Source of the DNA: Mobula hypostoma
Lineage: Eukaryota
Direction of reading: 5' to 3'
NCBI RefSeq assembly: GCF_963921235.1
Contig: NC_086108.1
Location: forward strand, 13,144,001 to 13,208,000
DNA: 64,000 bases
Numbering within the stretch: position 1 is the stretch's first letter; every line of letters starts with the position of its first letter. Made by a program: the position numbers and the translations under genes. Below are positions 6,820-56,415 of this stretch, one piece after another. The notes under the pieces were generated by a model. The model made no database searches. It had not been told where the DNA came from and saw nothing but the letters and a program-made list of their open reading frames with translations.

Positions 6820-6972
6820 ATGTCCACATGGCTCTCTGTTGGCAGGAGGTAGGTCGCAATTACCTGTGTAAAAGGCCTTTTCTGGAGCGACTTACAACCT
6901 ACACGGAATGCTGCTGTCAGTATGGTGAGGCATGGGGAATGGACTGTGCCCTGTGCCCAACCAGAAATACAG
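6820..6972 (+). CDS. LTBP4: LTBP4 exon, last TB (8-cysteine) domain
   Basis: Polypyrimidine tract, cacag|AT...ACAG|gtaac, 153 bp. (D)VHMALCWQEVGRNYLCKRPFLERLTTYTECCCQYGEAWGMDCALCPTRNT, with the TB 'ECCC' triplet and the LTBP4-like 'CWQEVG'. Confidence 0.95.
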
Positions 6973-7854
6973 GTAACGTCACCCTCTCACCTCCACCCAT
7001 CTCCAGTTCCTGACCAACCACTAAACTGACTCCAACACTACCATATCTACAGGAAGCAATACTTTAGAAAACATTTGTAGTCCTGTGTTCTCTGAGATGT
7101 GTTTGTGTAAAGGGAGTAGGAAATGTTAAAGATATTGTCACAGTTCAGGTAGATGGATCCCTAGGCCCTGATTAAATCTATTTCAGAAAGCGAGAGTGGA
7201 GATTGCTTTGGCTGTGCTGGGGATTTTTGCAGCTACTTCGGCTTTGGGAAACGTACCAGAAGACTGAATGTTGTTCTCTTACAGGCAGTGAGTCTTACAT
7301 CAAAGCTGAGGAATTAATTGGAAGAATATCAAAGGTCAGGAGATCTACTCACTTAGAAAGGCGAGACTGATTAGGGGGAGTTAGCAAGTTGAGAAGGGAT
7401 AAGCCTGATGGTAAGCTTTCAACGTAGAGAATGGTGGGTACATAGATGAGCTGCCAGTGGAGGTTGTAAAGACAGATAAAATACAGATACTTGAATAGGA
7501 AGAAGCTGGCATTAGCAAGCAATGCGACGAAGGGTGACAAACTTGGTTCACAAAACTACTGATTTCACTTCATTTCCGCCCTCCTTTTCTTTCTGTTCTC
7601 CTGCTGTTGGAGCCTGTGATCTACATTTTGCTAGTGCATCTTTGGGCTGATTGAGCAAACTGGTGCCTTGCTGTCTCCTACAGAGTTCAGTGAGGTTTTG
7701 TGCGGCCTGGAGGCCGTGAAGCCTGGAGATGGGACGCAAGCCCATGATCGGCTCCATTCTCGCTGACCTCACCGACTAAAGCATTGAGGAAGATTGAAAT
7801 CAACGAGGATGAGAACAGAAGAGGGGCGGATGTTCTGTGCCGTCTACCTGCATG

Positions 7855-8085
7855 TAACCAGTCTCTCTCTCCTCACTCGCTGCTCCCGGAGGAAGCGCTT
7901 GACCGGTCTCTCTCTCTCCTCACTCGCTGCTCCCGGAGGAAGCACTTGACCGGTCTCTCTCTCTCTCCTCACTCGCTGCTCCCGGAGGAAGCACTTGACC
8001 GGTCTCTCTCTTCTCACTCGCTGCACCCGGAGGAAGCACTTGACCGGTCTCTCTCTCTTCTCACTCGCTGCTCCCGGAGGAAGGT
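7855..8085 (+). repeat. ~47-49 bp minisatellite (~4.5 copies) inside a non-autonomous retroelement (~7540-8545)
   Basis: Repeated ggtctctctc(tc)nctcactcgctgctcccggaggaagcacttgacc. Confidence 0.85.
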
Positions 8086-8719
8086 GCCTATGTACAAATG
8101 TTCTCCCTCCCCCTTCTCGCTGGATGGTGCCAGAGTCCATGGGTCTTGGGCAAGGTTTAATTGACACATTTTGTGGATTGGACTCTGTAGTTCACGTTAT
8201 GATGTGTTTCTGGTTTCTGGTCACTCGTTTTTTTGTTTCTGTTTTGTGGGAGTTTGATCAGAGTGGCCTAGCGCTGTAGCCTACGGATAGCGAGAGACTT
8301 GGTGCTCGATTGAACTGAACTGAGTATACCTGGAATCTTTCAAAGGCTTTGTTACTGAGACTTTTGAATTCTGTGTTCCTTGCTCACGTTTTTTCTCACC
8401 ATTTGCGAGAGTTGGTTTTTTTTTGCACGTTCGGGATTTGATATTTTCTCTTTGAGTAGGTTCCATGGTTTTCTTTGTTCCGTGGCTGCCTGTGGGGAAG
8501 ATGAATCCCAGGTTCTATACTGCATACGTTCTTTGGTAATAAACGTACAGGCCTATTGCGAGTGAATGGAATTCGTACAGACTGGTATCACAGTTAGCAT
8601 GGAGGAGATGGGCAGAAGGACCTGTTTCTGTGCTGCACACCTCCAAGACTCGATGGTTCTTTGATGCATTTATACTCATCCTATGGAAATATCACTTACA
8701 TTCTCCCAATGGTCCCATG

Positions 8720-9125
8720 CACTCATCCAAGAGGACCACAAAACCTTGTCATAGATTTGGAGGCTTGCGTGCCTCAGTGACCTGGAGAGTGATGTTGGCT
8801 GGGGTCAGGGCTTTATGCTTTGGCTTTTGATAGAGTCACCCATGCCAAACAGGTAGAGGCCAGACTAAGAGTGGTCCACCGGTCCTCTAGGTTCGGGGGT
8901 TCAGCTCAGGGCTAACAACCCTGTCTGGTCAACAAAACTGTTACAGAAAGAGCAATGAAGAATCCTACATCTGAGTACGACAATATTCCTGAGTCTCCAC
9001 CCAGGACTTGTATGACTGACAACAGGAAGCTACTGACATGACGAAGGAAGCCCTGAACATCACCAGAGTTGGAGGAACTTCATTGCTGCCCTAAACACCA
9101 GCAGTGTAACAGGCAGTAGTAAGTC
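8720..9125 (+). mobile_element. Bipartite RTE-derived non-autonomous element
   Basis: RTE-like 5' leader joined to the 3' end ...ttcattgctgccctaaacaccagcagtgtaacaggcagtagtaagt. Reverse-complement copy at ~15215-15600. Confidence 0.65.
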
Positions 9126-9411
9126 CCATCAACCGACGCATTGCCAATTCCACCACTCGCCAACACATTAGGGATGATTTACAGCATGCCTTTGGGACAT
9201 GGGAGAAGACGGGAGCGTGCAAACTCCACACAACAGCACCAGAGGTGGGCACTGTATCTGGGTCTCTGCCCTCTCCACCAGTGACAGTCCAGTGCCTGTG
9301 GGAGATGGTCAATGGCCAAAGGATGATTTTTTTGAGGCCAAAGGGGTAGAAGGGAGAGGTGAAGTGAAGAATGAGGAATACTTGATATTGAAGCCCTCTT
9401 TTTTCCTGCAG

Positions 9412-9864
9412 AGTATCACAATGCGTTGTGCAGCTACCTGAGTTCACCCACTGAGGAAGACGATGGTTACCCTTATGGGTTGGAATATGAAAACTATGGT
9501 CCGCAGTTTGAACCCGAGTTCCCTCCAGATACCTTCCGGACCTACGATCCCCAAGAGTACGATGCTGGCCCATCTCCCCTCAGTGACGGACGAGGGGCCA
9601 GTCCCCCGGAGTTCGAGCCGTTCCCAGCTGCAGACCCTCTGGGTGGCCGTACGCTCTACGAGTCTCGCCGACAGCGCTCGGGGCCAGGCCACAGTGAGCA
9701 GAGCTCGCCCTCTCGATCCCGCTACCGGCCTCGAGCCAGGCACACCGGCCGAGGCTTCAGCACCAGGAGCACCCGGGTCAGCTTGCCCGAGCAGCAGAAT
9801 CGTCAGCCAGACGCTGCACCAGACCCCCACCCTCACCTCATCAGTAACAATGGGCAATATCACA
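9412..9864 (+). CDS. LTBP4: LTBP4 exon, end of TB domain plus Pro/Tyr/acidic then Arg/Ser-rich linker (3' end uncertain)
   Basis: ttttcctgcag|AG acceptor gives (E)YHNALCSYLSSPTEEDDGYPYGLEYENYGP... In-frame phase-1 donor candidates are A|GTGAGC after 9693 and A|GTGAGT after 9864. A phase-0 G|GTCAGC follows 9776. Confidence 0.7.
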
Positions 9865-10285
9865 GTGAGTATTATCATGTCACTACGGACCTGGTCTCTC
9901 TCCCTCCCCTCCACTCCCACCCCTTTCCCTCTCCTCCCTCCACTCCCAGCCCTTTCCCTCTCCTCCCTCCACCCTCACCTCATCAGTAACAATGGGCAAT
10001 ATCACAGTGAGTATTATCATGTCACTGCGGACCTGGTCTCTCTGCCTCCCTCTCTCCCCCCTCCACTCCCACCCCTTTCCCTCTCCTCCCTCCACTCCCA
10101 GCCCTTTCCCTCTCCTCCCTCCACCCTCACCTCATCAGTAACAATGGGCAATATCACAGTGAGTATTATCATGTCACTGCGGACCTGGTCTCTCTCCCTC
10201 CCACGCACACACATTTCATCAGTAGCAATGGGGAAGATGAGAGTGAGGGAAATCGTGTCACTGCAGACCCTGTCCCTCTCTCGTC
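9831..10285 (+). repeat. 142-152 bp tandem repeat (3 copies plus 1 diverged), each with a CT-rich spacer
   Basis: cctcacctcatcagtaacaatgggcaatatcacagtgagtattatcatgtcact starts at 9831, 9973 and 10125. Confidence 0.9.
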
Positions 10286-10339
10286 CTCTCCATTCCTCTC
10301 GCTCCCTTCTCATCCTCTCCCTGCGTCATCCCCATATTC

Positions 10340-11938
10340 TCTTTTTTAGAAGAGGTTATCAAAGTTCCCACATGGGGCGGTGCTCAAGAAGGTTCAGTCG
10401 CTCGGTATTCAAGATGAGGTAGTAAATTGGATTAGGCATTGACTTTTTGGTAGAAGCCAGAGAGTAACAGTAGATCGTTGCCTCTGACTGGAGGCCTGTG
10501 ACTAGTGGTGTGGTGCAGGGATCGGTGTTGGGACCTTTCTTGTTTGTCATCTACATCAACGATCTGGATGATAATATGGTTAACTGGATCAGCAAATTTA
10601 CAGATGACACTAAGATTGAGGGTGTAGTGGACAACGAGGAAGATGATCATAGCTTGCAGTGGAATCTTATCCAGCTGGAAATATGGGCTGAAGAACGGCA
10701 GATGGAATTTAATGTGGACGAGTGTGATGTTTTGCACTTCAGTAGGACCAACCAGGGTAGGCCTTACACAGTGAACAGTAGGGCACTGAGGAGTGTGGTA
10801 GAACACAGGGATCTGGGAATACAGGTACATAGTTTATTAGAAGCGGTGTCATAGGAGATAGGGTTGTAAAGAAAGCTTTTGATACATTGGCCTTCATAAA
10901 CCAAAGTATCGGGTACAGGAGATGGGATGATATGTTGAAGCTGTATAAGGCATTGGTGAGGCCTAATTTGGTGTGCAGTTTTGGTCACCTACCTATAGAG
11001 AAGATGAAAATAAGGTTGAAAGAGTACAGAGTAAATTTATAAGGATGTTGCCGGGTCTGGAGGACCTGAGTTATAAGGAAAGATTGAATAGGTTAGGACT
11101 TTATTCCTTGGAATGTAGAAGATTAACAGAGGTATACAAAGTTACAAGGGGTATAGACGGGGTAAATGTAAGCAGGCTTCTTCCACTACAGTTGAGTGAG
11201 ACTACAACTAGTGGTCATGGGTTAAGGGTAAAAGGTGAAACGGTGAAGGGGAACATGAGGGAAGCTTCTCTGCTCAGAAGGTGGTGAGAGTTTGGAATGA
11301 TCTACTGACACAGTGATGCATGCAAGCTCGATTTCAGCATTTAAGATGTTTCGCTATGTACGTGGATGGTAAGGGTATAGAGGGCAATGGTCCCAGTGCA
11401 GGTCAATGGGAGTAGGTGGCTTAACTGGTTCGACATGGATTAGATGAGCCAAAAGGCGTGCTTCTGTGCTCTCCTTTTCCAGAGGACTAGAATATAAATG
11501 CAAGGATGTAATGTTGAGACTTTATAAAGTGCTGGTGAAGACTCACTTGGAGTATTGTGAACAGTTTTGAGCCCTTTAGCTAAGAAAAAGTGTGCGGACA
11601 GTGGAGAGGGTTCACGACAATGATTCCGGAAATGAAAAGATTATCACCTGAGGAACGTTTGATGGTTCTGGGCCTCTACTCACTGGAATTTCGAAGAATG
11701 GGGGAGAATCTCTTTGAAACATATCGAATGTCGAAAGGCCTCAGTAAAGTGGATGTGTGGAGGATGTTTCCTATAGATGGGGGGGTGTGATTTCAGACCA
11801 GAGGACACGGAATAGAGGGGTGTCCTTTAAGAATGGAGATGAGGAGGAATTTCTTTAGCCAGAGAGTGGTGAACCTGTGGAATTTGTTGCCACAGTCGGC
11901 TGCAGAGGCCAAGTTATTGGGTATATTTAAGGCAGAGC
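10340..11938 (+). mobile_element. CR1/HER1-type LINE fragments (RT and 3' region)
   Basis: SGVVQGSVLGPFLFVIYINDLD...SKFTDDTKI; QFWSP...ERLNRLGLYSLE. Confidence 0.9.
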
Positions 11939-11939
11939 G

Positions 11940-13140
11940 ACATACAAAATGCTGGAGGAACTCAGCAGACCAAGTAGCAACTATGAAAAAGTGTTAACAG
12001 TTGACGTTTTGGGCCAAGAATCTTTATCAGGACTGAAAAAAGGAAATGAGAAGTGAGAGTAAGAAAGTGGAGGAGGGGTAGAAGAAGTACAAGGTAGTCG
12101 GTGATGTGTGAAACTGGGAGAAGGGGAGGGGAGAAGGAAAGAGCTGGGAAGTCAATTGGTGAAAGGGATAAAGGGCTGGAGAAGGGAGAATCTGATAGGA
12201 GAGGGCTGAAGGCCGTGGAAGAAAGGGTAGGGGGAGGAGCGTCAGAGGGAGGTGATTGGTGATAGAAGATGAGGTGAGAGAGGGAAACAAGGATAGGGAA
12301 TAGTGAAAGTGGGAAGCAACTATTGGAAATTCAAGAAATCGATGTTCATGCTATCAGGAAGGAGGCTACCCAGACAGAGTATGGGGTGTTGTTCCTCCAA
12401 CCTGAGTGTGGCCTCATCACAACAGTAGAGGAGGCGATGAACAGACATGTCAGAATGGCAATGGAAGTAGATTTGAAATGGATGGCCACCAGGAGATTCT
12501 GCCTTTTCTGACAGACAGAGTACAGGTGCTTGGTGAAGCAGACTCCCAATCTTCGTCGGGTCTCACCAATATACAGGAAACCACACCAGGAGCACTGGAT
12601 ACAGTAGATGACCCCAACGGACTGACAGGTGAAGTGTCGCCTCACCTGGAATGGCTGTTTGGTGCCCTGAATAGTAGTGAAGGAGGAGGTGTAAGGGTTG
12701 GTGTGGCACTTGTCCTGCTTGCAAAGATAAGTACCGGGAGGGAGATCAGTGGGGAGGGGCAAATGGACAAGGGAGGCGCTTAGGGAACGATCCCTGTGGA
12801 AAGCAGAAATTCGGGAGGAGGGAAAGATATGCTTGGTGGTGGGATCCCATCAGAGATGGCAGAAGTTATGGAGAATAATGTGTTGGACACGATAGGCGAG
12901 GACAAGAGGAACCCTATCCTTGGAGGGGTGATGAGTGGATGGGGTGCGAGCGGACATGCGTGAAATGGAAGATGCAGTTGAGGGCAGTGTTGGTGTGGAG
13001 GAAGGGAAGCCCATTTCTTTGAAGAAGGAGGACATCTCTTTAGTTCTGGAATGAAAAGCCTCATCCTGAGAGCAGATGCAGCAGAGACAGAGGAACTGAG
13101 AGAAGGGAATGGCATTTTTACAAGTGACAGGGTGGGTATG
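11940..13140 (-). mobile_element. Penelope-like element (PLE) 3' part: GIY-YIG endonuclease remnant plus pseudo-LTR
   Basis: ORF 12346-12762 has FQVRRHFTCQSVGVIYCIQCSWCGFLYIGETRRRLG..F..HL (GIY-YIG). The distal end carries a degenerate hammerhead motif at 11998-12035. Confidence 0.85.
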
Positions 13141-13504
13141 ACAGAAATGGCGAAAAAGATCCCCTGCATGCTCTCATCCACCCCATGACACCTTATTCTT
13201 CCTCCTGTCACCTCCATCCTTTTCCTCTCTCCCTGCTGTCCCCCTCTGCCCCCTCTCTATTGTCAGAGCCCTGTGCCTGTTATAATCCCTGTAATGTTTT
13301 GTAACTTCAAAACATTAAATTAATTCAAATGAAGGCACAGGAGTCCAAAATGTACGTCTAACTTCGTGCTTATTTTAAGCAAGGTGCACAGGTATCACAT
13401 GGTAGCGTGATGACATATGGAATTCACGTATTTGTACATATAACCCATGATCGATAATTTGAATGAACAAGAACATTTGGTCAACCAGTCTATAGACAGG
13501 ATTA

Positions 13505-13785
13505 TGCACCATGGTAGAGTAGTGGTTAATACAACACAGTACAGTACCAGCAACCCAGATTCAGTTCCCAATGCTGTCTGTAAGGAGTTTGTATATCCTC
13601 TCCATGACCAAGTAGGTTTCCTCCAGGTGCTCCAGTGCCCTCCCACAATCCAAAGATGCTCCGGTTGGTAGGTCAATTGGTCATTGTAAATTGTCCTGTG
13701 ATTAGACTGGCATTGAACCAGGGGTTGCTGGGAGGTGCAGTTCGAAGGGATGAAAGGACCTATTCAGCATTGTTTCTCAATGAGT
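13505..13785 (+). mobile_element. tRNA-derived V-SINE/HE1-like SINE
   Basis: tggtagagtagtggttaatac...ggtttcctccaggtgctccagtgccctcccacaatccaaaga. Confidence 0.7.
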
Positions 13786-14024
13786 ACAAGTAACATCTTT
13801 CCTCCATTAACTCCATTAGTGACATTAACTTTGGATTTTACCCACACTTACCTGTAACACACCACAAACTGCGCATAGCCGCCACGGCCCATTTGTGATG
13901 CCCTCGCACTATCCTCACCCTGCCAGGATGAGACGGTTTCCTCCCACAGTCCAAAGACGTAATAAAACGGAAATATTAAATACACAGCAATCGCAGAACC
14001 TGACATTGTGCCGCTTTGATCCAG

Positions 14025-14174
14025 CCCGGTTCCAGCAATACAACAGCCTGCGGGTGGAGGAATGTGGAATTCTGAACGGCTGTGAGAATGGCAGGTGTGT
14101 CCGTGTGCCTGAAGGCTTCACCTGTCACTGTGATGCCGGCTACAGACTCGACATGACCAAGATGACTTGCATTG
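14025..14174 (+). CDS. LTBP4: LTBP4 exon, EGF-like domain
   Basis: gatccag|CC...ATTG|gtacgg, 150 bp. [50 protein letters not shown]. '[10 protein letters not shown]' and 'YRLDMT' are LTBP4-like. Confidence 0.92.
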
Positions 14175-14655
14175 GTACGGAGTTGGAAGGGGGTGCTGGT
14201 GCAGGGGGAAGGGAGGCGCTGGGGGTTTGGAAGCTCGGCTTTAGGCCACAGTGAGGCAGGTTGGCCCAACAGCTGCTTCAGGCCAGGATAATGGCTCCTC
14301 TCACACACCCAGCTCAGAGATTTATTTTATCGAAAAACTGCACGTCCACAGAGTGTGATAACTCAAGTGTACTCCTGCGGTGTGCGAGCTGGCTGTGAGT
14401 GGATGCTACAAGAGGTGTGTCTGTGTGTGTGTGTGTGTGTGTCTGGGGTGCACAGGGGATGTGGGGGGGGGGAAATGAGTGTGCAGAGGGGTGAGTCCAT
14501 TAATGGATCTGCAGGGGAGAGGGTGCACGTGGGTGTGAGTCTGTGGGGAATGAGTGTGACAAGCTATTTGTTGAGGAGTGGGAACTAAGTGGGTTGTGAA
14601 GTTAGTGAGAATGATGAGCTGAACACAGCCGCTAACACATTTCCTTTGGTTTCAG

Positions 14656-14825
14656 ATATAAACGAGTGTGACGAAGTTGAAGATCCCAAAGTTCTCTGCA
14701 GAAATGCCAAATGCGTTAACACGGACGGCTCGTATCGATGCATCTGCTTACGCGGTTACGTGCTGTCACGCCAGCCCAATTACTGCACAACCGTGCAGGG
14801 GAGCATGAGGGGGGCAGGCTTGTGA
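14656..14825 (+). CDS. LTBP4: LTBP4 terminal coding exon, final cbEGF and stop
   Basis: tttcag|AT acceptor. (D)INECDEVEDPKVLCRNAKCVNTDGSYRCICLRGYVLSRQPNYCTTVQGSMRGAGL*, TGA at 14823-14825. Confidence 0.93.
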
Positions 14826-29870: not shown

Positions 29871-30284
29871 AGAACATCTCGCACTTAATTGCATCTGCCA
29901 TTTTTCTCACAATTTTCCAGCTGGTCTGGATCCCATTCTTAAGTTCTTAAAGTCCTCCTCACTGTCCACTACACCTCAATCTTGGTGTCATTTGCAAATT
30001 TGCTGATCCAGTTGACTGCATTATCATCCAGATAGTTGATATAGATGAAGAACAGTAATTAAGTTGAATAAAGTGATAAGATTAGTTAGACACAACCAAC
30101 CATGCATGAAGCAACGCTGTCTATCCCAAATCAGTCCATATCTATCCAATTATTCGTATATCCAGTCCCTTAGACTACGTTCCAAAAACTTCCTCACTAC
30201 TGATGACAAATGAACCAAACAAATTTAAGGGCAGGATGGAAGTTGAAGGCAAAGTTGATTAAAGACAATAAACAGTTCTTTTAA

Positions 30285-30410
30285 GCAACACACATCAAAG
30301 TTGCTGGTGAACGCAGCAGGCCAGGCAGCATCTCTCGGAAGAGGTACAGTCCACGTTTCAGGCCGAGACCCTTTGTCAGGACTAACTGAAGAAAGAGCTA
30401 GTAAGAGATT
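30285..30410 (-). mobile_element. Short Penelope pseudo-LTR fragment with a mutated hammerhead
   Basis: Minus strand AGTC-CTGACAA-AGGGTCTCGGCCT-GAAACGTG-GACTG at 30347-30384. Nearly identical to the 54856-54995 element. Confidence 0.75.
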
Positions 30411-32549
30411 TTATGCCATCCCCAACTGAACCTGCAGCTTGAGGCCCAGTCCTCGCTGCTGCCTCATTGCCTGTCCCACTACCAAGGGAAGGAGGCCTGC
30501 GGCTGCCAATGTCCAACAAGAGAAATGTCCAGGACAGTCGCTCATGGTTTCACCACAGAGCACTTTTGCGCCAACATGAAGTAACCAACCCCAGTGCCTC
30601 TGAGTATCAGACAGCAGGTCTGCACTCAGCTCAGCTCCTCTGAACCCAGTCCGGTTGCTCCTGTGGCCCCTTGTTCCAACTTGAATCCCTCAGCCCGCTG
30701 GCGTGACTCACCTGCCATGGCCCGACAGCCCGATACAACTCTCCTGGTCTGACAGGCTGACTCGCCTTCTCTGAACCACTGGCTGGTTCGTACGACACCC
30801 AGCCGGCTACTCTGAACACTAAGCAGCTCACTGATGCAATACACACTGCGCATGAAGTTATTGGAGTCAAGAACAGTCTTACTTTGTATATAAAATAGAT
30901 TTTACAAAGTAAAAAGCACTTCTGTTTGCACCCCGAGAGGCTGCTGCTTGTATATGTGCCATCTTACCAGAATAACAATTGCATATTATCCTGAAGAGAT
31001 TTTGAATAACAACAGGATAGTTTACATATAACCAGACACAAATGATAAAGTGGGGCTTGCAGTTTTCAACAGGGAAGGCAGAATTGATCACAGCTACGAA
31101 TGTTTCACAACTAAACACTATCCACAACTTCCACTTGCCCATTCTCACACGACCACTAAAATTGAGTCCTTCACCACCCTTAAGACTCATCATCTTACCT
31201 TTGAGGGTTTGCAAGGCTTACTCATCTCCTCTGTGATGAAGAGGGAGGCGGAGTAGTGTTCACAGGGTGCTAACTACTTCCCCCGGCTGGGCAGAGTGAT
31301 CACAAAGCCCTGCCACCACGAGAGTGAATGCCATGAGAAATCTACAAACAGTACTTCATTGTGCCTACCATATCTCCCTTGAACACAGCTGCTGGCTCCA
31401 CTACTATCAGTATTCTAATATGTTGAATTCACAGATGGCTGGCGGAAGTCAGATTTTAACTTAATTCATACTCACATGTGCAAAGACCAAACGAACCTCC
31501 ACAGTGCACTTCCTATTAAAACACGAGAACATTTCTGGTCAGTAATTCAGAAGGTGTGTAGCTAGGGTGGTTGATGGTTGAGTTGAGTTACTGATCTCGT
31601 CAATTTATGTCACCATGCATCATCAGTTTGTGGACAATCAGCAGTGCATTGATGATGTCTCCTCGCATGGTAACAAAATGTTTGCAAGTAAATTGCCAAA
31701 ATTGGAGAACAACTCAACATACCCAGTTTTAGTCCAACCTGTGTCTGGTCATTATCTCTGAGTTTCAGCCTGAGCTGCTCTCCTTGCCATAGTTGATCCT
31801 AGGGTCACTCTGCGATTCTGGATTAATGTGCTTTTCCAGGGTTTGGTAAGGATTTATATCCCATTTCCAAGCCAACCTCCCTCTTATTCCTTCTGTTCTC
31901 CAGTCCAGGGTCCATCTTCATCCATCGCAGGTGGATTATTGATAGCCACAGTATCACCCTGATTTTTTTTTCAATTTAACAATTGCACCTTAAATGATTA
32001 CGACTGTGCCAATCAGCAAAAAGAGGAAAATGGAATTGATTGTTGTTGATAGTTCATATGGGGACTGTACTCATCACAGGGATTTGATAACTAAGGCTTA
32101 TCACTCAGGTATTTTTTTTCCATAGAATCCTATGCCTCCAGTTAACTTGAATTATCATGGTCAGTACCATCTGTACTGATTACCATTGGAAGTGTGTAAG
32201 GGATTGTCTCTTTTTGCCTTATAACAGGTGTGCACTGTCTTATATCAATTTATTAGGCCACCAAGACTTTGGTTCAAGGATGCTACTTATGGGTAAGATA
32301 TTACCAAATTAGTGTGATGCCCCTTACCTCATGTTGATCTGATTCCAACTTGAAGAACACACTTCACAGTGTCTTAATTGACATTTATGGTTTTACAAAA
32401 AAAATTGCTGATTCGGAATCCACTGCCAACTAATCCTAGAGATTTATTTCATCAAGCAAATCATTATCAATCACCTTGTTGATTCTACAAGAACTTCACA
32501 AACCATTAATGATCCCTGTATGTAACAACCTCTATTTGAATTACTCCCA

Positions 32550-33680
32550 AACATTGTGGTGCCGCTAACATTGCGGCCTCTCTCCCAGCTGAGCTCAATC
32601 ACTCTTATGCTCGGTTCAATGTCGCTAACTCTGAGCCTCCGAGGAAAGCCACCGCTACAACCTGCAACCTGGTCATCTCTGAGGCTGAAGCACGCAGGTG
32701 TTTCCAACGAGTGGACAGTCGCAAGGCTGCGGGACCGGACGAGTACTCAGGATGTGCACAGCACAACTGGCAGGTGTGTTTACTGACAGTTTTTAATCTC
32801 TCCCTCTTCCAGTGTAGAGTGCCCTCCTGCTTCAAGTTATCCACCATTGTCCCTGTACCAAAAAAGACCAAGGCAACATGCCTGAACGACTGGCATCCTG
32901 TCACACTCATCTCAAAAATAAGCAAATGCATTGAGAGGCTGGTCAAGGATTACATCTGCAGCTTGCTACCACGTAAACTGGATGTTCTACAATTTGCCTA
33001 CCAATACAACCGATCGACAGACGACACAATAGCCACTGCTCTATATACTGTCCTTACACATTTGCAGAAGAAGGATGCTTAAGTGAGAATTCTGTTCTTG
33101 GACTACAGTGCAGCATTCAACACAATAGTTCCATCCAGACTCTACAAGAACCTCGGCCTTGACCTTGCCTTGTACAGCTGGATCCTGGACTTCCTGCCAG
33201 ATCGCCAGCAGGTGGTAAGAGTGCGCTCCCTCCACCCCTCTGACTCTCAGAACAGGAGCCCCTCAGAGCTGTGTACTGAGTCCCCTCCTTTACTCCCTAT
33301 ATACCCATGACTGTGTCGCCACCCATAGCTCTAATCTGCTAATTAAATTTGCCGAAGACACTACATTGGCCTTATCTCAAACAATAACGAGGAGACCTAC
33401 AGGGAAGACATCATCTCTCTGACGCAATGGTGTCAAGAAAACAACTTCTCCCTCAATGTCGTAAAAACAAAGGAGCTAGTTGTGGATTACAGGAGGAATG
33501 GAGGCGGGCTAACCTCTATCGACATCAGTGGACCTGGGGTTGAGAGGGTAAACAGCTTTAAGTTCCTCGGCATCCACATCTCTGAGGACCTCACGTGGTC
33601 TGTACACACCAGCTGTGTGGTGAAAAAGGCACAATAGCACCTCCTTCACCTCAGATGGTTGAGGAAGCTCGGTATGGGCA
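32550..33680 (+). mobile_element. Rex1/Babar LINE RT fragment (degenerate)
   Basis: RKAAGPD...VFNLSLFQCRVPSCFKLSTIVPVPKK...LQFAY...RSTDD; RILFLDYSAAFNTIVP. Confidence 0.88.
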
Positions 33681-35439: not shown

Positions 35440-36185
35440 AGCTGGAGTTTTCCATGGATCCTCAGATCACTGATGTAGGGGCCAATTCATCCGGCCTCTC
35501 CCAAACCCACACATCCCCGATCTGGGGGCCGGTTCAGTTGGACTTCCCCAGACCCACAAATCCCTGATGTGGAGGCCAGTTCATCCGGACTCTCCCAGAC
35601 CCGCAGAGCCCTGATCTGGGGGCCAGTTCGGTTGGACTTCCCCAGACCCACACATCCCCGATCTGGGGGCCAGTTCAGTTGGACTTCCTTTGATCCACAG
35701 ATCACTGACGTGGGGGCCAGTTTATCCGCACTCTCCCAGACCCACAGATTCCTGATGTGGGGGCGAGTTCAGTTGGACTTCCCCAGATCCACAGATCCCT
35801 GATGTGGGGGCCAGTTTAACCAGACTCTCCCAGACCCATAGAGCCCTGATGTGGGGGCCTGTTCAGCTGGACTTCCCCAGACCCATAGATCTCCGATGTG
35901 AGGACACGTTCAACTAGAATTTTCTATGTACCCGCAGTTCCCTGACATGGGAGCGAATTCAACCAGAATTTTCTATGGACATACAGCTCTCTGATGTGGG
36001 GCCAGTTCAGCAGTTATTTTCTGTGGATCTGCAGCTCCCTGATGTGGGAGCCAGTTCAACCAGAATTTTCCGTGGATCTGCAGCTCCCTGATGCAGGAGC
36101 CAGTTCAACTGGAATTTTCCGTGGATCTGCAGCACCCTCACGTGGCAGCCAGTTCAACTGGAATTTTATGCGGACCTGCAGCTCA
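35440..36185. repeat. 47-49 bp minisatellite (~15-16 units) downstream of the SHKBP1 stop
   Basis: Unit gatgtgggggccagttcagttggacttccccagacccacagatccct. A period of 47 was checked at 35472, 35519 and 35566. Confidence 0.9.
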
Positions 36186-43340: not shown

Positions 43341-44425
43341 TATTACCCTATGACTAAGATCCCCAAGGATCAGAAAATAAACAGACCCATCAGCCTTATT
43401 GTCTGTTCTGATGAAGAATTCTCCAACAGCAATGTTAACTGCTTCTACAGATTCTGTCTGACCCAAGTGTTTCCAGTGTCTTCTGTTTTACAGGGGTTTA
43501 GTGCCATGGACCAATACCATGAAGCAAGGGGTCCATGGACCCCAGGTCGCAAATCCCTGGTCTATGGTAAAGATGAGTCTATAGTTGGGGGCAGAATGCA
43601 GCAAGTTGCTCAGTGGAGGACAGACACTTCCCCTCTGTTGAGGCAATGGAAATATGACATGACAGAAGGAAAATAGGACAGTCAGATGAATTGAACTCCA
43701 GATCCAGCACCATTTCAGAACCCAGGTCCTAGGCCCTGGACCAATGTCAGCTGCTCTTTTGCCAACACCAAGAGCAAAACGCAATGGATCTCTCTCATCT
43801 AACCCAAAACAATTGGTGGTGTCACTCATCCACTCAAACACTAGTATTCCTCACACATCCAACGCTTCAATGATCCCACCATCCCACAATCAAACTGGGA
43901 TCACAAGACACTGGAGCAAAATTAGGCTATTCAGCCCATTGAGTCTGCTCCACCATTTCTCCATGGTTGATCCATTTCCCTCTCAGCCCCAATCTCCTGC
44001 TTTCTCCCCTAACCCATCACACCCTGACTAATCACGAATCCAGCAATCTCCACCTTAAGTACATTCAATGACTTGGCCTCCACAGCCATTTGTGGAAACA
44101 AATTCCAGAAATTCATTGCCCTCTGGCTGAAGAAATTCCTCCTCATCTCTGTTTTAAATAGATGTGCCTCTATCTGAGGTTGTGTCCTCTGGTCTGAGAC
44201 TCCCCCACTATAAGAAATGAAGCATCCTCTCCACATCCACTCTTTTGAGGTACTTCAACATTCGATAGGTTTCAATGAGATCGTCAACTAATTTTTCTGA
44301 ATTCCAGTGAGTATCAGCCCAGAACCATCAAATGCTCCTCATGCGATAAGTCTCTCAATCCTGGAATCATTTTTGTGAACCTCCTTTAAACCCTCTTCAA
44401 TGTTAGCAAGCCTTTTCTTAAATAA

Positions 44426-44922
44426 ACGCAAAGTAATCTGCAGGTGCTGAGGTCAAAACGACACTCACAACACGCTGGAGGAACTCAGCAGGTCGGGCAG
44501 CATCCATGGAAACGATCAATCAACGTTTCGGGCCGGAACCCTTCGTCAGGACTGAAGAGGGAAGGGGCAGAGGTGCGGGGAGGGTGGGAAGGAGAAGGCT
44601 GGTAGGTTCCAGGTGAAAAACCAGTATGGGGAGGGGAAGCAGGGAGGTGATAGGCAGGAAAAGTGAAGAAAGGTTCCTCCTTCACCTTTCCTGCCTGTCA
44701 CCTCCCTGCTCCCCCTCCCCCATCCCTTTATCTTTCCCCTTACTGGTTTTTCACCTGGAACCTACCAGCCTTCTCCTCCCCACGCTCCCCCCACCTTCTT
44801 TATAGGGCCTCTGCCCCTTCCCTTTTCAGTCCTGACAAAGGGTTCCGGCCCGAAACGTTGACTGATCGTTTCCACGGATGCTGCCCGACCTGCTGAGTTC
44901 CTCCAGCGTGTTGTGAGTGTTG
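44426..44922. mobile_element. Fold-back Penelope-derived insertion with a 14-bp TSD, inside a CR1 fragment
   Basis: Arms ~44461-44673 and ~44676-44920 are reverse complements. TSD cttttcttaaataa at 44412-44425 and 44923-44936. Confidence 0.88.
44517..44554 (-). ncRNA. Minimal type I hammerhead ribozyme motif (core intact)
   Basis: CAGUC-CUGACGA-AGGGUUCCGGCCC-GAAA-CGUU-GAUUG: stem I CAGUC/GAUUG, stem II GGG/CCC, palindromic ACGU stem III, GUU cleavage triplet. Confidence 0.65.
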
Positions 44923-46373
44923 CTTTTCTTAAATAAGGAGCCCAAAACTGCTCACAGTTCTCCAAGTGATGCCTCACCAGTGACTCATAAAGCCTCAGCA
45001 TTAGATCCTTGCTTTTATATTCTAATCTTCTCAAAATGAATGCTAACATTGCATTTGCCTTCACCACCACTGACTCAACCTGCAAATTAACCTTGAGGAA
45101 ATCCTGCACAATGACTCCCAAGTACCTTTGCACCTCATATTTTTGAATTCTCTCTCCAATCCTTCTACCAAAGTGCATGACCATAAACTACACTTCCCAA
45201 CTCTATTCCATCTGCCATTTGTTTGCCCATTCCCCTAATCCAAGTCCTCTGTGGCCTTCCTCAGCACCACCTGCCCTTTCACTTATCTTCGTATCATCCA
45301 CAAACCCACCAACTCCTGTTACCATCAGCTCCCCTGAAGTGCGGTGCCACTCTGCCTCAGCTCAATCGTCACTAAAACCCACGCTTACACCTCGCTTCAT
45401 CTCCAGATTCGGCTATTTCAATATCCTGCTGGGTGGCCCGACTCATTCAAACTCGCACAAATCATCCAAAACGCAGTTTCTTTTGTACCTGTCACATCAA
45501 GTTCCATTTTGTAATCATCCTCCAGCCTATATCAGCTCCTTCTCTCACAAGCTTCCTATCCTTTCACCTTCTCAGCACCCCCTAACACATCTCCAAATAT
45601 AATCCTTCTATCATTAGCTGCCTTTCCTGGGAGATTCCAAATCTAAGCACCTCTCATTCAACTTCAAAACTTCTGAAGGTTTCAGGAAGTTCAAAGTACG
45701 TGTGTCACCATATACAACCCCGAGATTCACTTTCCTCCAGCATAATCTATAGAATAGTAACTATAACAGGATCAATGAAAGATCAACCAGAGTGCAGAAG
45801 ACAACAAAACGTGCAAATACAAAGATAAATAAATAGCAATAAATAATGAGAACATGAGATAATGAGATACAGGGTCCTTAGCGTGAGATCATTGGTTTGG
45901 GAAACATCTCAATGGATGGGGATGTGAGTGTGGTTACCCCTTTTGTTCAAGAGCCTTATAGTTGAGGGGTAGTAACTGTTCTTTAACCTGGTGGTGAGAG
46001 CCTTGAGGTTCTTGTACCTTCCACCTGATGGCAGCAGTGAGAAAAGAGCATAGTCTGTGTGGTGGGTTTCTGATGATGGATGCTGCTTTCCTACGACAGT
46101 GTTTCATGTAGATATGCTCAGTGGTTGGGAGGGGTTTACTTGTGATGTACTGGGTCAAATCCACTACCTTTTTGTAGGATTTTCCAATCAAAGGCTTTGG
46201 TGTTTCCATACCAGACCGTGATGCAACCAGTCAATACACTCTCCACTACACAACTATAGAAGCTTGTCAAAGTTTTATATGTCATGCCAAATGCTGTGGG
46301 GTGGGGGACAGGCACACAGTCAAAACAAAGCCAGACACCTTGAATCTGGATGACTGGCCAATCCAGGACTCAC

Positions 46374-51085: not shown

Positions 51086-51599
51086 CTGGAAAATCAAGCA
51101 ACATAAACAGAATTCCAAAGATTAGAAAAAGTCGCCACAGAGGCTTCACCAGTTCACCTTAGCGTCTCCTATTTCCTCTGCTAAAAATATTGGTTCTGTG
51201 TCGTTTTGCAAGGTAACGCATTACAACCAGGTAGTCAATCAGAACACTGGCAATGAGGGATATGACTATTTCACTAGACAAACCTTACCCTCATCACAAT
51301 TATCCAGAAATGCCATTTGTTCCAGGAAACACGGGCAGTTGACGGAAGAATCCTGCCTCATTCTCCAAACTTTCTGTACAGATAAGCTGCTCCACCTGAC
51401 ACACAACCCCAAACACCCCTGATTTCACCCATCCCACACTTGTGCTGTAAAAATAAGCTAACAATGAGAGAAATCTTTGGAGCCCAGGCTCACAACATCC
51501 TGAAACACCCAGCACCACAGGAGATCAGAACAGGGAATGTAAAGCATTGGGGGTGGGGTGGGCTGGGCTGATGAAAAATACTGTGTTGCCAGCTAAAAG

Positions 51600-51915
51600 G
51601 ACTGTGGGGGGGGGGTTGGGGAGCTGTGGGACAGTTGCGGGGAGGGGTTGGGGAGCCTTGGGACAGTTGAGGGGGGTCGGGGAGCCGTGGGACAGTTGGG
51701 GGGGTGATCGGGGAGCCGTGGGACAGTGGGGGGCGGGGTCGAGGAGCTGTGGGGACAGTGGGGCGGTCGGGGAGCCGTGGGACAGTGGGGGGGGTCGGGG
51801 AGCCGTGGGACAGTGGGGGGGGGGTCGGGGAGCCGTGGGACAGTGGGGGGGGGTCAGGGAGCCGTGGAACAGTGGGGGGGGGGTCGGGGAGCCGTGGAAC
51901 AGTGGGGGAGGGGAA
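51600..51915 (+). repeat. G-rich ~29-31 bp minisatellite (~10 copies)
   Basis: Repeated (g)nTCGGGGAGCCGTGGGACAGT. Confidence 0.9.
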
Positions 51916-52270: not shown

Positions 52271-53108
52271 CTGTGGGAGAAAAATGATTCAGAATGAGCT
52301 TTAACATCACCAGAGTAGGCTGTGAAATTTGTTGTATTTGTTGCAGCAGTGCAATGCAATACAATACATGATAAATATTGAAAACCAATTTTTAAAAAAT
52401 TATATATATATAGTAATTAAATTTGTTGTGCAAAAACAGAAATAAAAAAGTAGTGAGGTAGTACTCATGGGTTCATTGCCCATTCAGAAACCGGATGGCA
52501 GAGGGGAAGAAGCTGTTCCTGAATCATTGAGTGCGGCCTTCAGGCTCCTGTACCTCCTTCCTGATGGTAACAGTGAGAAGAGGGCATGTCCTGGGTGATG
52601 GGGCTCCCTAATGATGGGAGCCTTCCTTTGAGGCACCACTCCTTGAAAGTGTCCTGGATGCTACGGAGACTGATACCCATGATGGAGCCGATTAATTTTA
52701 CAACTTCAATCCAGTGTAGTACTACTCCCCCCCACAATACCAGATGGAGATGCAGCCAGTTAGAATGCCCTCCACAGTACATCTGTAGAAGTTTGAGTGT
52801 TTTGGTGACAAACCAAATCTCCCCAAACTCCTAATGAAATATAACCACTGTCTTGCTTTCTTTATCGTTGAATCAATATGTTGAGATCCTCAGAGACATT
52901 GACACCCAGGAACTTGAAACTGCTCACTTTCTCCACCTCTGCCTCCTCTCTAAGGATCGGTGTGTGTTCCCTCATCTTACCCTTTCTGAAGTCCACAATC
53001 AGCTCTTTGACCATGGCAAGCGAATGGGGGGGGGGGGGCGGGGGACACTATATAAATGCGAGCACTCCCAGACAGAAACACCAACAACTGCACATTGCGG
53101 ATGTCATC

Positions 53109-54185
53109 TGTTACGTACACGCAACCCTGTGAAAGTATCAGCAGCAATAGAACACACCTGGAGTCTGGTTTTGCTGTTAACTATCACAATTTTATTAGTA
53201 ACTACGTAATATAGTAACTTAAACCAGGTAAACCAAGAGTTAGTAGTGTTATGCATATATAGGTGTAAAAAAATAAAAGTTCCCAAACTTATTCAAGCTC
53301 AGGTGGCAAGAGTTCAGTCTTACGATGGTACGTAAGAAAGTTCAGTTCAACCCACGGAATTGAGGTGAGAGAGAAGTTTTGCAATCCAGATAAACAGGTG
53401 TCGTCAATCTTCCAGCTGTCAGCTCTGAATCCACTTTCAAGTTAGCCAAACGTAGCTTATCACAAAGGGTACCGACTTCAAGGGAAAACTACCAGCCAGG
53501 CAAGGGTAAACACACCGGTAGCCTCCACAAGGTTACCCCAATCACACAACGTGATAGCCACTTATCCAGTCCCACGACATACAAAGTAACTCCAACAGTG
53601 ATTTGCCACAGTGAACTACCACACCCAGGCAAGGGTTAACACACACGTGATATTCCCTAACCAGAAGACCCACTCCTATAGATCAAACTATGTGACAATC
53701 ACACATTCATATTCGCTGGAATCAAACTTACCCTTACGGGCTACTAGGAGAGAGTCTAAACAGTGACCCCTTTGTCACTAGCTTTCTTCTGTTTCAAGCC
53801 TTTCTCTCCCCTCCTCTCTGCAAGTGCTTCCAGATGCAGCAACTTATGAGAGTCACTTATCAATAATCTGGATCGATACTCAACTCACCCCTTGTGGGCT
53901 ACTGAAAGTTTTAACCAGCGACTCCCCCACCCCCGTCACAGGTGTCCTTCCATGACCAATGCCACCTCAGACTCTGACTGTGAAAACGAGAGTGTCCTTG
54001 TAAAAGTCCAAACATGCTGCAGAGAAATGTAAACAAGCTGCCAGCGAAGAATGGCTCTGCCCTCTCTCTCTCTCTAGCAACGCAGTTAGCAGTAGAAGAC
54101 AGCTGCTTTTCGTAATGCTGTACTCAGTCTCTCTCTCTCTTTAAAGGCATAGTCCATAACGAATGAAACTTCAGATCCCATCACA
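53109..54185 (-). mobile_element. Solo LTR related to 22129-22944
   Basis: 53109-53215 aligns with the reverse complement of 22840-22944. The minus-strand start tgtgatggga resembles tgtgatgagg. No clean TSD (catc versus cact). Confidence 0.65.
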
Positions 54186-54855
54186 CACTCACACACCTCA
54201 ACTGGTGACGAAACATCTACAAGCTAATGGCCAAACATGGCGAACATGGCAACATCGGACACTTCAACCCAAGTTACCAACGTATACAAGGCCATATATT
54301 GGAGCAAATTAGGCCATTTGGCCCATCAAGTCTACTCCACCATTTCATCATGGCTGATCCAATTTTTCTCTCAGCCCTGATCACCTGCCTTCTTCCCATA
54401 TCCCTCCATACTCTGACCAATCAAGAATTTATCAGCCTCTGCCTTAAATATACCCGATGACTTGGCCTCCACAACTGCCTGTGGCAAAGAATTTCACAGA
54501 TTCACCACTCTCTGCCTAAAGAAATTCCTCCTCATCTCTGCTCTAAAAGGACACTACTTTATTCTGAGGCTGTCTTAGACTCTCCCACCATAGGAACCAT
54601 CCTCTCCACATCCACTCTATCAAGGCATTTCAACATTCAATAGGTTTAAACAAGGTCACCCCTCATTTTTCTGAATTTTAGTGAATATAAGTCCAGAGCT
54701 ATCAAACGCTTTTCATATGACAAGCCATTACTCCCTGTATACCCATGACTGTATCGTCACCCACAGCTCCAATCTGCTAATTAAATTTGCTGACGACACG
54801 ACATTGATTGGCCTTATCTCAAACAATAACAAGGTAGCCTACAGGGAAGAAGTCA

Positions 54856-54995
54856 AACAACAGGAATTCTGCAGATGCTGGAAAATCAAGCAACACACAT
54901 CAAAGTTGCTGGTGAACGCAGCAGGCCAGGCAGCATCTCTAGGAAGGGGTACATCAACGTTTCAGGCCGAGACCCTTCGTCAGGACTGATGAAGA
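54856..54995 (-). mobile_element. 140-bp Penelope-derived mini-element with a 10-bp TSD
   Basis: TSD gaagaagtca at 54846-54855 and 54996-55005. The Rex1 sequence resumes across the insertion. Confidence 0.88.
54952..54988 (-). ncRNA. Minimal type I hammerhead ribozyme motif (core intact, stem I weakened)
   Basis: CAGUC-CUGACGA-AGG-GUCUCGG-CCU-GAAA-CGUU-GAUG. Confidence 0.6.
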
Positions 54996-56415
54996 GAAGA
55001 AGTCATCTCTCTGACACAATGGTGTCAAGAAAACAACCTCTCCCTCAATGTCGCAAAACAAAGGAGCTGGTTGTTGATTACAGGAGGAATGGAGACAGGC
55101 TAACCCCTATTGACATCAATTGATCTGGGGTTGAGAGGGTGAACAGCTTTAAGTTCCTCGGCATGCACATCACTGAGGACCTCACGTGGTCTGTACATAC
55201 CAGCTGTGTGGTGAAAAAGGCACAACAACGCCACTTTCACCTCAGACTGTTGAGGAAGTTTGGGATGGGCCCCCAAATCCTAAGAACTTTCTACAGGGGC
55301 ACAATTGAGAGCATCCTGACTGGCTGCATCACTGCCTGGTATGGAAACTGTACCTCCCTTAATCGCAGGACTCTGCAGAGAGTGGTGTAGACAGCCCAGC
55401 GCATCTGCAGTTGTGAACTTCCCATGATTCAGGAAATTTATAAGGACAGGTGTGTAAAAAGGGCCAGTAGGATCATTGGGGACCCAAGTCACTATTCTAG
55501 CTGCTGCCATCCAGGAAGCGGTACTGCAGCATAAAAGCCAGGGCCAACAGGCTCTGGGACAGCTTCTTCCACCAGGCTATCAGGCTGATGAACTCACACT
55601 GATTTGAGTGTATTCTATATTATATTGACTGTTCTATTTATTATAAATTACTATGATTGCACATTGCACATTTAGATGGAGACGTAACGTAAAGATTTTT
55701 ACTCCTCATGTATGTGAATAATGTACAAAATATATTCAATTCAATTCAATCCTGGATTCATTTTCGTGAACCAGCCTTGAACCCTTTCCAGTTTCAGCAA
55801 ATCCTTTCTAAGGATAAGGCCCAAAACTGTTCACTATACTTAAGTGAGGCCTCACCAGTGTTTTATAAAGTCTCAACATTACATCTTTGCTTTTACATTC
55901 TAGTCCTCTTGAAATTAATGCTAACAGTGCATTTGCCTTCCTCACCACAGACTCAACCTGCAAATTAACCTTTAAGGAATCCTGCACAAGGACTCCCAAG
56001 TCCCTTTGCATCTCAGTATTTTGTATTTTCTGTCCATTTAGAAAATAGTCAACCCTTTTATTTTCTTCCACTAAAGTGCATGACCATACACTTCCTAACA
56101 CTGTATTCCACCTGACACTTCTTTGTCCATTCTCCTAATCGAAGTCCTTCTGTAGCCTTTATACTTCTTCAGAACTACCTGCCCCTCCACCTATCTTCAT
56201 ATCATCTGCAGACTTTGCAACAAAACCATCAATTCCATCATGCAAATCATTGGCATAAAATGCAATACAATTGGTCCCAACATAGACCATAAACATAGTG
56301 TAACACCACTAGTCACTGGCAGCCAACCTGAAAAGGCTCTCTTCATTCCCCATTCTTTCCCTCCTGCCAATCAGCCACTGCTTTATCTTTCCTCTAATAT
56401 ATAAATATACATTAC

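What the first reader, a model, noticed from the sequence alone, without database searches (positions are those of the whole stretch)
54856..54995. 140-bp retroposed mini-element consisting of little more than a hammerhead motif and PLE terminus
Seen in sequence: a clean insertion into a Rex1 RT region with a 10-bp TSD (gaagaagtca). The minus strand reads CUGACGA-AGG(GUCUCGG)CCU-GAAACGUU, a complete hammerhead core with a palindromic stem III. A near-identical sibling is at 30285-30410. Established: PLE-associated minimal type I hammerheads and non-LTR retrozymes are thought to cleave as dimers through the palindromic stem III. Inference: this is a retrozyme/SINE-like non-autonomous family mobilised by Penelope machinery, and here it lies sense to SHKBP1 transcription.
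Basis: partly seen in the sequence, partly recalled or inferred. Interest (0 to 1): 0.75.

Follow-up and report, generated by a model that had tools for sequence, protein, structure and literature searches.

The report
Truncated Penelope retroelement end with hammerhead
The 140-base insert is real and is most likely an ordinary, decaying tail-end copy of a very abundant Penelope-type jumping gene in a ray genome, carrying that family's known minimal hammerhead motif rather than being a separate self-cutting mini-element; the one unexpected lead is that the opposite strand of the same repeat appears as a predicted in-frame extra exon in many devil-ray gene models.

Summary
In detail: 54856-54995 is a clean insertion with a perfect 10-bp TSD in a LINE RT fragment (Rex1/Babar-like, label recalled), inside a SHKBP1 intron, hammerhead sense to SHKBP1. 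It carries a minimal type I hammerhead with loop-less palindromic stem III (ACGU). The retrozyme/SINE reading is not supported: no tandem units, no canonical hammerhead, no Pol III head, and neither end lies at the cleavage site. The element ends in the optional ~33-nt Penelope tail (two 3'-end clusters in public contigs). Related ends in the window reach 12, about 30, 119, 163 and about 1,125 nt upstream of the core, the longest into a Neptune-type GIY-YIG ORF. This copy departs from the family majority in stem I, G10.1-C11.1 and the cleavage triplet, so it is probably inactive. Open: no ORF link was shown for this exact subfamily, and 5' ends may pile up just past the hammerhead (a preferred RT stop or fold-back). 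Side finding: the antisense strand forms a recurrent 46-aa in-frame insert in annotated Mobula isoforms (13 of 15 hits share one end), an Alu-like exonisation lead that does not apply to this copy.

The parts
54846..54855 (+). Left copy of the 10-bp target-site duplication; its last two letters also match the family's 3' end (possible 2-nt microhomology at the priming junction)
   Evidence: family contigs run on to 54854 before their loose ends begin (table 7)
54856..54995 (-). 5'-truncated Penelope-like element end: 12-nt leader, minimal hammerhead, pLTR body, tail
54856..54887 (-). Optional PLE tail (32 nt here), absent from the sibling at 30283 and from the 44925 arm
   Evidence: alignment; loose-end clusters at 54854 and 54886-54890; tail described in PMC11167929 and PMC8557442
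54888..54955 (-). pLTR body downstream of the predicted cleavage site; begins with the damaged 3' arm of stem I (one base missing against sibling and family majority)
54956..54983 (-). Minimal type I hammerhead core: C3 at 54983, unpaired A, stem II 54975-54964 (G10.1-U11.1 instead of G-C), palindromic ACGU 54960-54957, H17 = U at 54956
54984..54995 (-). 12-nt 5' leader: 5' arm of stem I plus about 7 nt; 54986-54994 is an 8-of-9 inverted repeat of 54975-54983 (possible fold-back micro-arm, or mutated family sequence)
54996..55005 (+). Right copy of the target-site duplication
54725..55387 (+). Host LINE fragment (RT FADD motif, C-terminal PF09004 domain); Rex1/Babar assignment is from recall; right end not mapped
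52271..56415 (-). SHKBP1 intron that holds the LINE and the insertion
30283..30412 (-). Sibling of the same subfamily: no tail, about 30 nt upstream of C3, core G8A, C11.1U and G at position 17; lies downstream of the SHKBP1 stop codon
44412..44936 (.). Related subfamily: head-to-head inverted pair of truncated ends (119 and 163 nt upstream of C3), one arm with tail, one without, 14-bp TSD at 44412-44425 and 44923-44936
11940..13155 (-). Related subfamily: about 1.2-kb truncated PLE with RT C-terminal part, CX4CxxC-type linker, GIY-YIG with CxxC, stop at about 12323, 293-nt pyrimidine-rich UTR, degenerate hammerhead, pLTR end

Best explanation
The 140-bp insert is likely a 5'-truncated, now decaying copy of the 3' end (pseudo-LTR plus tail) of a high-copy Neptune-type Penelope-like retrotransposon. 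Inferred mechanism: the element's GIY-YIG endonuclease nicked the old LINE, its RT started internally at the distal tail site on an RNA that the hammerhead had not cut, copied through the hammerhead, and stopped 5-12 nt beyond the core, possibly with a short fold-back; second-strand cleavage 10 nt away gave the TSD. Shown: TSD, empty sites, tail, motif, family abundance, linkage of a related end to a PLE ORF, variable 5' extent. Inferred: enzymology (from the Anolis element, PMC11167929), uncut template (the insert spans the cleavage site), loss of ribozyme activity in this copy.
For: TSD and empty sites. Two 3'-end clusters about 33 nt apart with A/T-rich, low-agreement flanks: loose ends before 54854 in X1 and X15 and before 54886-54890 in X5 and X15, matching the two RT start sites of PMC11167929. 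Summed contig depth over the pLTR body is about 19 times the LINE-flank peak in X1 (11.6 M vs 0.62 M; a rough abundance signal, not a copy number). 196 X1 contigs run on beyond 54988 with a purine-rich consensus, as expected for the upstream UTR (agreement 0.48). Eight related ends in the window by nhmmer (seven built the profile) with measurable 5' extents of 12, <=8, about 30, 119, 163 and about 1,125 nt. The longest joins a frame 59-69% identical to ray PLE proteins and 35-40% to full-length RT + GIY-YIG proteins with the CX2-5CxxC linker that marks Neptune/Nematis. Inverted pair with one tailed arm and a 14-bp TSD is the textbook PLE structure. Decay: family contigs mostly read GUC with an intact stem I and C11.1 (A54956G in 82, 82, 81 and 59% of the depth covering that place; loose ends behind 54953 in 4 of 4 runs), whereas this copy has GUU, G-U at 10.1-11.1 and a 3-bp stem I, with predicted stem II probability 0.00.
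Against: The ORF-linked copy belongs to a different subfamily (71% identical over 87 nt); no ORF link was shown for this subfamily. 5' ends look enriched near the hammerhead: 2 of 6 measurable copies stop within 12 nt of C3, two further old copies are undetermined (within 58 and 66 nt), and inverted or discontinuous joints recur at 54983-54987 (4 of the 12 rows shown in table 5c, plus an opposite-strand joint in 7 X1 contigs), though joints would be reported there anyway because this copy diverges from the family at that point. Purely random truncation is therefore not established. One search used short-read contigs at 85% likeness, showed only the best-supported rows, and for X1 did not count everything.
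Confidence: 0.78

Rival explanations
1. The subfamily is a non-autonomous PLE derivative (like the pLTR-derived repeats of Xenopus or MRC1 of Chlamydomonas): short master copies without an ORF are transcribed and retroposed in trans by a Neptune RT/EN, using the pLTR and tail as cis signals; the 140-bp unit is a full-length or nearly full-length product.
For: Very high abundance of the short end; no ORF link found for this subfamily; possible pile-up of 5' ends at the hammerhead edge; pLTR sequences suffice for mobilisation in trans in Adineta (PMC3846280 passages).
Against: The only same-subfamily sibling differs at both ends; 13 of 15 Mobula proteins show the family continuing at least 17 nt beyond C3, past this copy's end; no promoter-like or Pol III head.
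Confidence: 0.14
2. A non-LTR retrozyme: tandem units self-cleave as hammerhead dimers, the monomer circularises and is reverse-transcribed and inserted.
For: Palindromic stem III suited to dimer cleavage (PMC4209133); element and hammerhead majority sequence are intact at family level; retrozymes are reported in one chondrichthyan genome and derive from pLTRs (bioRxiv 10.64898/2026.07.22.740005).
Against: No tandem array at any copy in the window (19 TRF rows, none overlapping a copy); no head-to-tail joint among the 15 best-supported joints, 159 not shown; ends lie about 100 and 40 nt from the cleavage site and upstream sequence is UTR, not the element's own tail; described retrozymes carry canonical, not minimal, hammerheads (PMC7229834 passages).
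Confidence: 0.04
3. The hammerhead of this copy works in the SHKBP1 pre-mRNA (cis dimer with another sense copy in the gene) and affects host RNA processing.
For: Three sense copies lie in SHKBP1 introns (54856, 50492, 44437 arm); the 44437 arm keeps all 13 tested core positions.
Against: This copy has a broken stem I and G-U at 10.1-11.1, and the active fold is not predicted; the 50492 copy lacks G12 and A13; partners are 4-10 kb apart; minimal hammerheads cleave poorly even as dimers (PMC4209133) and the Anolis one needs the PLE protein.
Confidence: 0.02

Closest known systems
Minimal hammerheads (min-HHR) in pLTRs of metazoan Penelope-like elements (Cervera and de la Pena 2014, PMC4209133; parts 1-2 of 4 read)
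   Same: Type I core, no loop III, palindromic 15.2-16.2, unpaired nucleotide before stem II; mostly found as single dispersed motifs of truncated PLEs, including fish Neptune/Poseidon/Xena.
   Different: Stem II here is only 4 bp; this copy has lost G10.1-C11.1 and most of stem I. I found no paper describing the batoid family.
5'-truncated EN+ PLE insertions with optional 30-40-bp tail and inverted arms (Frangieh et al. 2024, PMC11167929, parts 1-2 of 4 read; Craig et al. 2021, PMC8557442, passages; Arkhipova et al. 2013, PMC3846280, passages)
   Same: Two 3' ends about 33 nt apart, A/T-rich targets, TSD of 10-14 bp, uncut hammerhead inside the copy, head-to-head inverted partner copies.
   Different: The ORF-bearing relative here is Neptune-type by its linker motif (no tree built), not Poseidon; the copy is unusually short and may end at a preferred site beside the hammerhead.
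Non-LTR retrozymes (Cervera and de la Pena 2020, PMC7229834, passages; Li et al. 2026, bioRxiv 10.64898/2026.07.22.740005, parts 1-3 of 5 read)
   Same: Non-coding, type I hammerhead, pLTR-related, TSD longer than 4 bp.
   Different: Retrozymes are tandem repeats with canonical hammerheads and circular RNAs; this is a solo, tail-ended copy with a minimal hammerhead and no tandem partner.
Antisense Alu exonisation (search listing only; mechanism recalled)
   Same: An antisense-oriented high-copy retroelement supplies both splice sites of an internal cassette exon in host gene models.
   Different: Here a PLE end; the cassette is 138 nt, frame-preserving and stop-free; evidence is predicted isoforms only; this particular copy is in the wrong orientation and lacks the donor.

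Membership tests
5'-truncated EN+ Penelope-like element | pLTR containing a minimal type I hammerhead | tested here: met
5'-truncated EN+ Penelope-like element | Optional 30-40-nt tail giving two 3' ends | tested here: met
   32-nt extension versus sibling; loose-end clusters at 54854 and 54886-54890
5'-truncated EN+ Penelope-like element | Target-site duplication of variable length | tested here: met
   10 bp here, 14 bp at 44412/44923
5'-truncated EN+ Penelope-like element | Variable 5' truncation and inverted 5' arms among copies | tested here: met
   5' extents from <=8 to about 1,125 nt; inverted pair at 44.4-44.9 kb; randomness of the ends not established
5'-truncated EN+ Penelope-like element | End attached to an RT + GIY-YIG ORF | tested here: inconclusive
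   Met for a related subfamily at 11940-13155; not shown for this subfamily
Neptune clade of PLEs | CX2-5CxxC linker plus CCHH-type endonuclease, C-terminal EN | tested here: inconclusive
   Motifs present in the 12-kb copy's homologues P0001/P0002 and degenerate in the window copy; shared with Nematis; no RT tree built
Non-LTR retrozyme | At least two tandem units each with a hammerhead | tested here: not met
   no head-to-tail joint among best-supported joints; genome-wide arrays not testable
Non-LTR retrozyme | Canonical type I hammerhead with loop III and loop I/II contacts | tested here: not met
   No loop III; no Rfam hammerhead match
Non-LTR retrozyme | Expression as self-cleaved linear and circular monomer RNA | not testable with these tools
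   Only contigs were available; they cannot show RNA ends or circles
SINE | Pol III (tRNA, 5S, 7SL)-derived head and fixed 5' end | tested here: not met
   No such Rfam match at E<=10; 5' ends differ between the two same-subfamily copies
Active minimal hammerhead (this copy) | G10.1-C11.1 pair and a stem I of 4 bp or more | tested here: not met
   G-U pair; stem I 3 bp then two mismatches
Active minimal hammerhead (this copy) | NUH triplet and palindromic stem III | tested here: met
   GUU and ACGU; that GUU is weaker than GUC is recalled
Active minimal hammerhead (this copy) | Self-cleavage as dimer | not testable with these tools
   needs in vitro assay
Rex1/Babar LINE (host) | RT phylogeny / library match | not tested
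   Only RT motif and PF09004 hit; clade name is recalled

The most novel reading that the evidence does not exclude
The 110-140-nt end is a preferred product of the PLE enzyme (internal start at the tail, stop or fold-back at the outer arm of hammerhead stem I), so rays have been flooded with a SINE-sized unit without any separate SINE master; and the antisense strand of that unit acts as the rays' Alu, supplying a ready-made 138-nt, frame-preserving cassette exon (acceptor in the tail, donor about 17 nt past the hammerhead) that is really spliced into many host mRNAs.
Probability: 0.3. Interest if true: 0.55.

Novelty: new member of a known kind. Interest (0 to 1): 0.24.

Why it matters
As it stands the insert is ordinary genomic debris of a described class: dispersed minimal hammerheads on truncated Penelope ends were reported in 2014 and the tail was explained in 2024. 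It would matter more if (a) 5' ends truly pile up at the hammerhead, because that would give the first in vivo footprint of what the motif does during Penelope retrotransposition, an open question since cleavage was dispensable in vitro; or (b) the antisense cassette exon is real, because a non-mammalian vertebrate would then have an Alu-like source of in-frame exons from a Penelope element, and, if it is not real, many ray gene models contain a systematic repeat artefact.

Tried and rejected
Own genome: none held, so no genome-wide copy number or end table. Rfam: no hammerhead family matched, on the window or the locus; the many miRNA hits at 44.57-44.79 kb are the inverted PLE pair. Exact-pattern scans of metagenome (2), prokaryote genome (1) and viral (1) contigs: 0 matches each. 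A 14-nt degenerate motif scan was barely above chance (5 matches, 1.94 expected) and is not used. Folding of the 140 nt: z = +0.77, no special stability. TSD search for the other copies found none of 7 nt or more adjoining 30283, 12030, 2461 or 50492, and only an unconvincing 11-mer 923 nt away for 43399. The 43399 row was mis-registered by one base and was dropped; the other 7 rows are used. Pfam on 236 stop-free frames of 70 aa or more gave no GIY-YIG hit on the degenerate 12-kb copy; its identity rests on homologues. No laid contig spans the whole locus, so presence or polymorphism of this insertion in other animals is unknown; RNA status of X15 is a guess, so nothing is concluded on expression. 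The attempt to link this subfamily to an ORF through annotated proteins failed: the 15 hits run into host sequence. Lunse et al. (PMC5785218) is not held; seen only as cited in the review PMC6765202 (passages). Searches gave listings only and are not used as evidence. No supplements were read; the closed supplements of the Li et al. preprint list chondrichthyan retrozyme families and may bear on novelty. An origin by cleavage at the hammerhead was rejected because the insert spans the cleavage site.

Full report
Observation. The stretch 54856-54995 is a clean insertion. The 10-mer GAAGAAGTCA occurs only at 54846-54855 and 54996-55005 in the window, the host RT frame continues across the site, a paralogous LINE copy at 33287-33679 lacks the insert, and contigs in 4 of 4 public runs skip exactly 150 nt with 10 shared letters (most likely paralogous LINE copies, not the orthologous site). 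The host fragment has an RT FADD motif and a PF09004 domain; the name Rex1/Babar is recalled. Exons of SHKBP1 run on the minus strand (best hit SH3KBP1-binding protein 1 of a stingray, 98% over 54 aa; exon map), and the insert lies in the intron 56415-52271. The genome is therefore a cartilaginous fish, most likely a ray.

The motif. On the minus strand the insert reads a 12-nt leader, CUGACGA, an unpaired A, a 4-bp stem II, GAA, the palindrome ACGU and U17. This is the minimal type I hammerhead of Cervera and de la Pena (PMC4209133, parts 1-2 read), which Rfam models do not detect here. This copy is damaged. Contigs of the family mostly have C at position 17 (82, 82, 81 and 59% of the depth at 54956), and loose ends behind 54953 in 4 of 4 runs show the base missing from stem I and C11.1. 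The copy has G10.1-U11.1, GUU and a stem I of 3 bp; two of the three changes are CpG-type transitions; the predicted probability of stem II is 0.00 and the 140 nt fold no better than shuffles (z +0.77). Of 7 window copies scored, 1 (44437 arm) keeps all 13 core positions, and it too has U17.

What it belongs to. A profile of seven copies finds eight related ends in the window, the eighth weak. At 11940-13155 such an end follows a 293-nt pyrimidine-rich UTR and a broken frame 59-69% identical to ray proteins and 35-40% identical to full-length RT + GIY-YIG proteins. Those proteins carry the CxxC inside GIY-YIG and the upstream CX2-5CxxC linker of Neptune/Nematis elements; no tree was built. At 44412-44936 two truncated ends sit head to head inside a 14-bp TSD, one with and one without a tail, the arrangement drawn for PLEs in PMC8557442 and PMC3846280 (passages). 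The finding's insert carries the tail, its sibling at 30283 does not. In public contigs loose ends cluster before 54854 and before 54886-54890, with A/T-rich, low-agreement flanks, the signature of two internal RT start sites shown for the Anolis element (PMC11167929, parts 1-2 read). Summed depth on the pLTR body is about 19 times the LINE-flank peak in X1, so the family is very abundant, though this is no copy number.

Discrete family or truncation. Measurable 5' extents upstream of C3 are 12 (this copy), at most 8 (2461), about 30 (30283), 119, 163 and about 1,125 nt; two old copies are undetermined. In X1, 196 contigs continue beyond 54988 with a purine-rich consensus, and 13 of 15 Mobula proteins show the subfamily continuing at least 17 nt past C3. 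So -12 is not a fixed family end. No copy lies in a tandem array and no head-to-tail joint is among the 15 best-supported joints (159 not shown). Neither end is at the cleavage site, so the template was not a cleaved monomer. Retrozymes as defined in PMC7229834 (passages) and the 2026 preprint (parts 1-3 read) are tandem, with canonical hammerheads. Against my reading: I could not tie this exact subfamily to an ORF; the ORF-linked copy is only 71% identical over 87 nt; and ends may be enriched at the hammerhead edge (joints at 54983-54987, with the caveat that the reference diverges there). Earlier agent notes on this genome report such a pile-up (e1-9958889), a lead I could test only in part. 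In this copy 54986-54994 is an 8-of-9 inverted repeat of 54975-54983, which fits a short cDNA fold-back at the outer arm of stem I but also fits mutated family sequence.

Mechanism. Most likely (0.78): target-primed reverse transcription by a Neptune-type RT/EN, internal start at the distal tail site, passage through an uncut hammerhead, stop 5-12 nt beyond it, TSD on second-strand resolution, then neutral decay. The enzymatic steps are inferred from the Anolis work. Rivals: non-autonomous pLTR-derived family (0.14), retrozyme (0.04), ribozyme acting on SHKBP1 pre-mRNA (0.02). Orientation is uninformative: 3 of 7 intragenic copies are sense to their host gene (the LTBP-like gene on the plus strand is named from EGF/TB domains and recall).

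Side finding. Searching with the sibling's plus-strand frame gave 15 proteins among 82 candidates, all annotated Mobula isoforms of 14 unrelated genes. Thirteen end the repeat-derived piece at the same residue (GLTEGR) and 10 contain the same start (EFCRxWKF), which corresponds to CAG|GAATTC at 54861-54864. Against solved homologues the piece is a clean in-frame insertion in 3 of 3 tested: MAGOH, SGT1 and AS3MT. This suggests a 138-nt antisense cassette exon, Alu-like, but rests on predicted models and the search selects for in-frame cases. I found no report of it in one paper search or in two look-ups of earlier notes. It does not apply to this copy, which is in the other orientation and stops short of the donor.

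Verdict. Real feature, known kind: a short truncated Penelope end with a degenerate minimal hammerhead. I found no paper on the batoid family, but the architecture is in print. Interest 0.24, raised slightly by the possible preferred stop and the exonisation lead.

Noticed in passing
window 54864-54995 (+ frame) and 30283-30411; proteins P0276-P0290: The antisense strand of this PLE end appears as a 46-aa in-frame internal piece in annotated Mobula isoforms of 14 genes; 13 of 15 share the C-terminal boundary, 10 of 15 the N-terminal motif; clean insertion in MAGOH, SGT1 and AS3MT. Possible Alu-like exonisation or systematic annotation artefact.
   Followed up: partly
window 54986-54994 and 54975-54983: 8-of-9 inverted repeat with a 2-nt spacer at the 5' junction; possible micro fold-back of the cDNA at the outer arm of stem I.
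   Followed up: partly
window 54984-54995, 44550-44660, 44722-44831, 12031-12140: Just upstream of C3 the copies read pyrimidine tract (78-84% in the three long copies) + CAG|TC, like a 3' splice site at the 5' arm of stem I; the Drosophila virilis Penelope intron ends at the same place (PMC4209133).
   Followed up: no
window 51103-51086 (-): The 3' splice site of a SHKBP1 exon is identical over 18 nt to the pLTR/tail boundary of the element (54895-54878); no hammerhead upstream, so probably chance or convergence of a splice-acceptor-like sequence.
   Followed up: partly
window 30271-30209 (-): A short, old PLE RT-coding fragment lies 12 nt downstream of the sibling's 3' end (E 2e-4 within the window); partial tandem or insertion into an older PLE relic.
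   Followed up: no
window 44412-44936: Head-to-head inverted PLE pair with a 14-bp TSD in a SHKBP1 intron; forms a long hairpin that draws spurious Rfam miRNA hits and could be an editing or small-RNA substrate.
   Followed up: partly
window 13156-13260: Purine-rich stretch directly upstream of the 1.2-kb PLE copy looks like an inverted UTR arm.
   Followed up: no
window 5821-14822 (+) and 36369-57961 (-): An LTBP-like gene (EGF-Ca and TB domains) and SHKBP1 lie tail to tail here.
   Followed up: no
window 35463-36184 and 51599-51913: 47-49-bp and 30-bp minisatellites just downstream of the SHKBP1 stop codon and in an intron.
   Followed up: no
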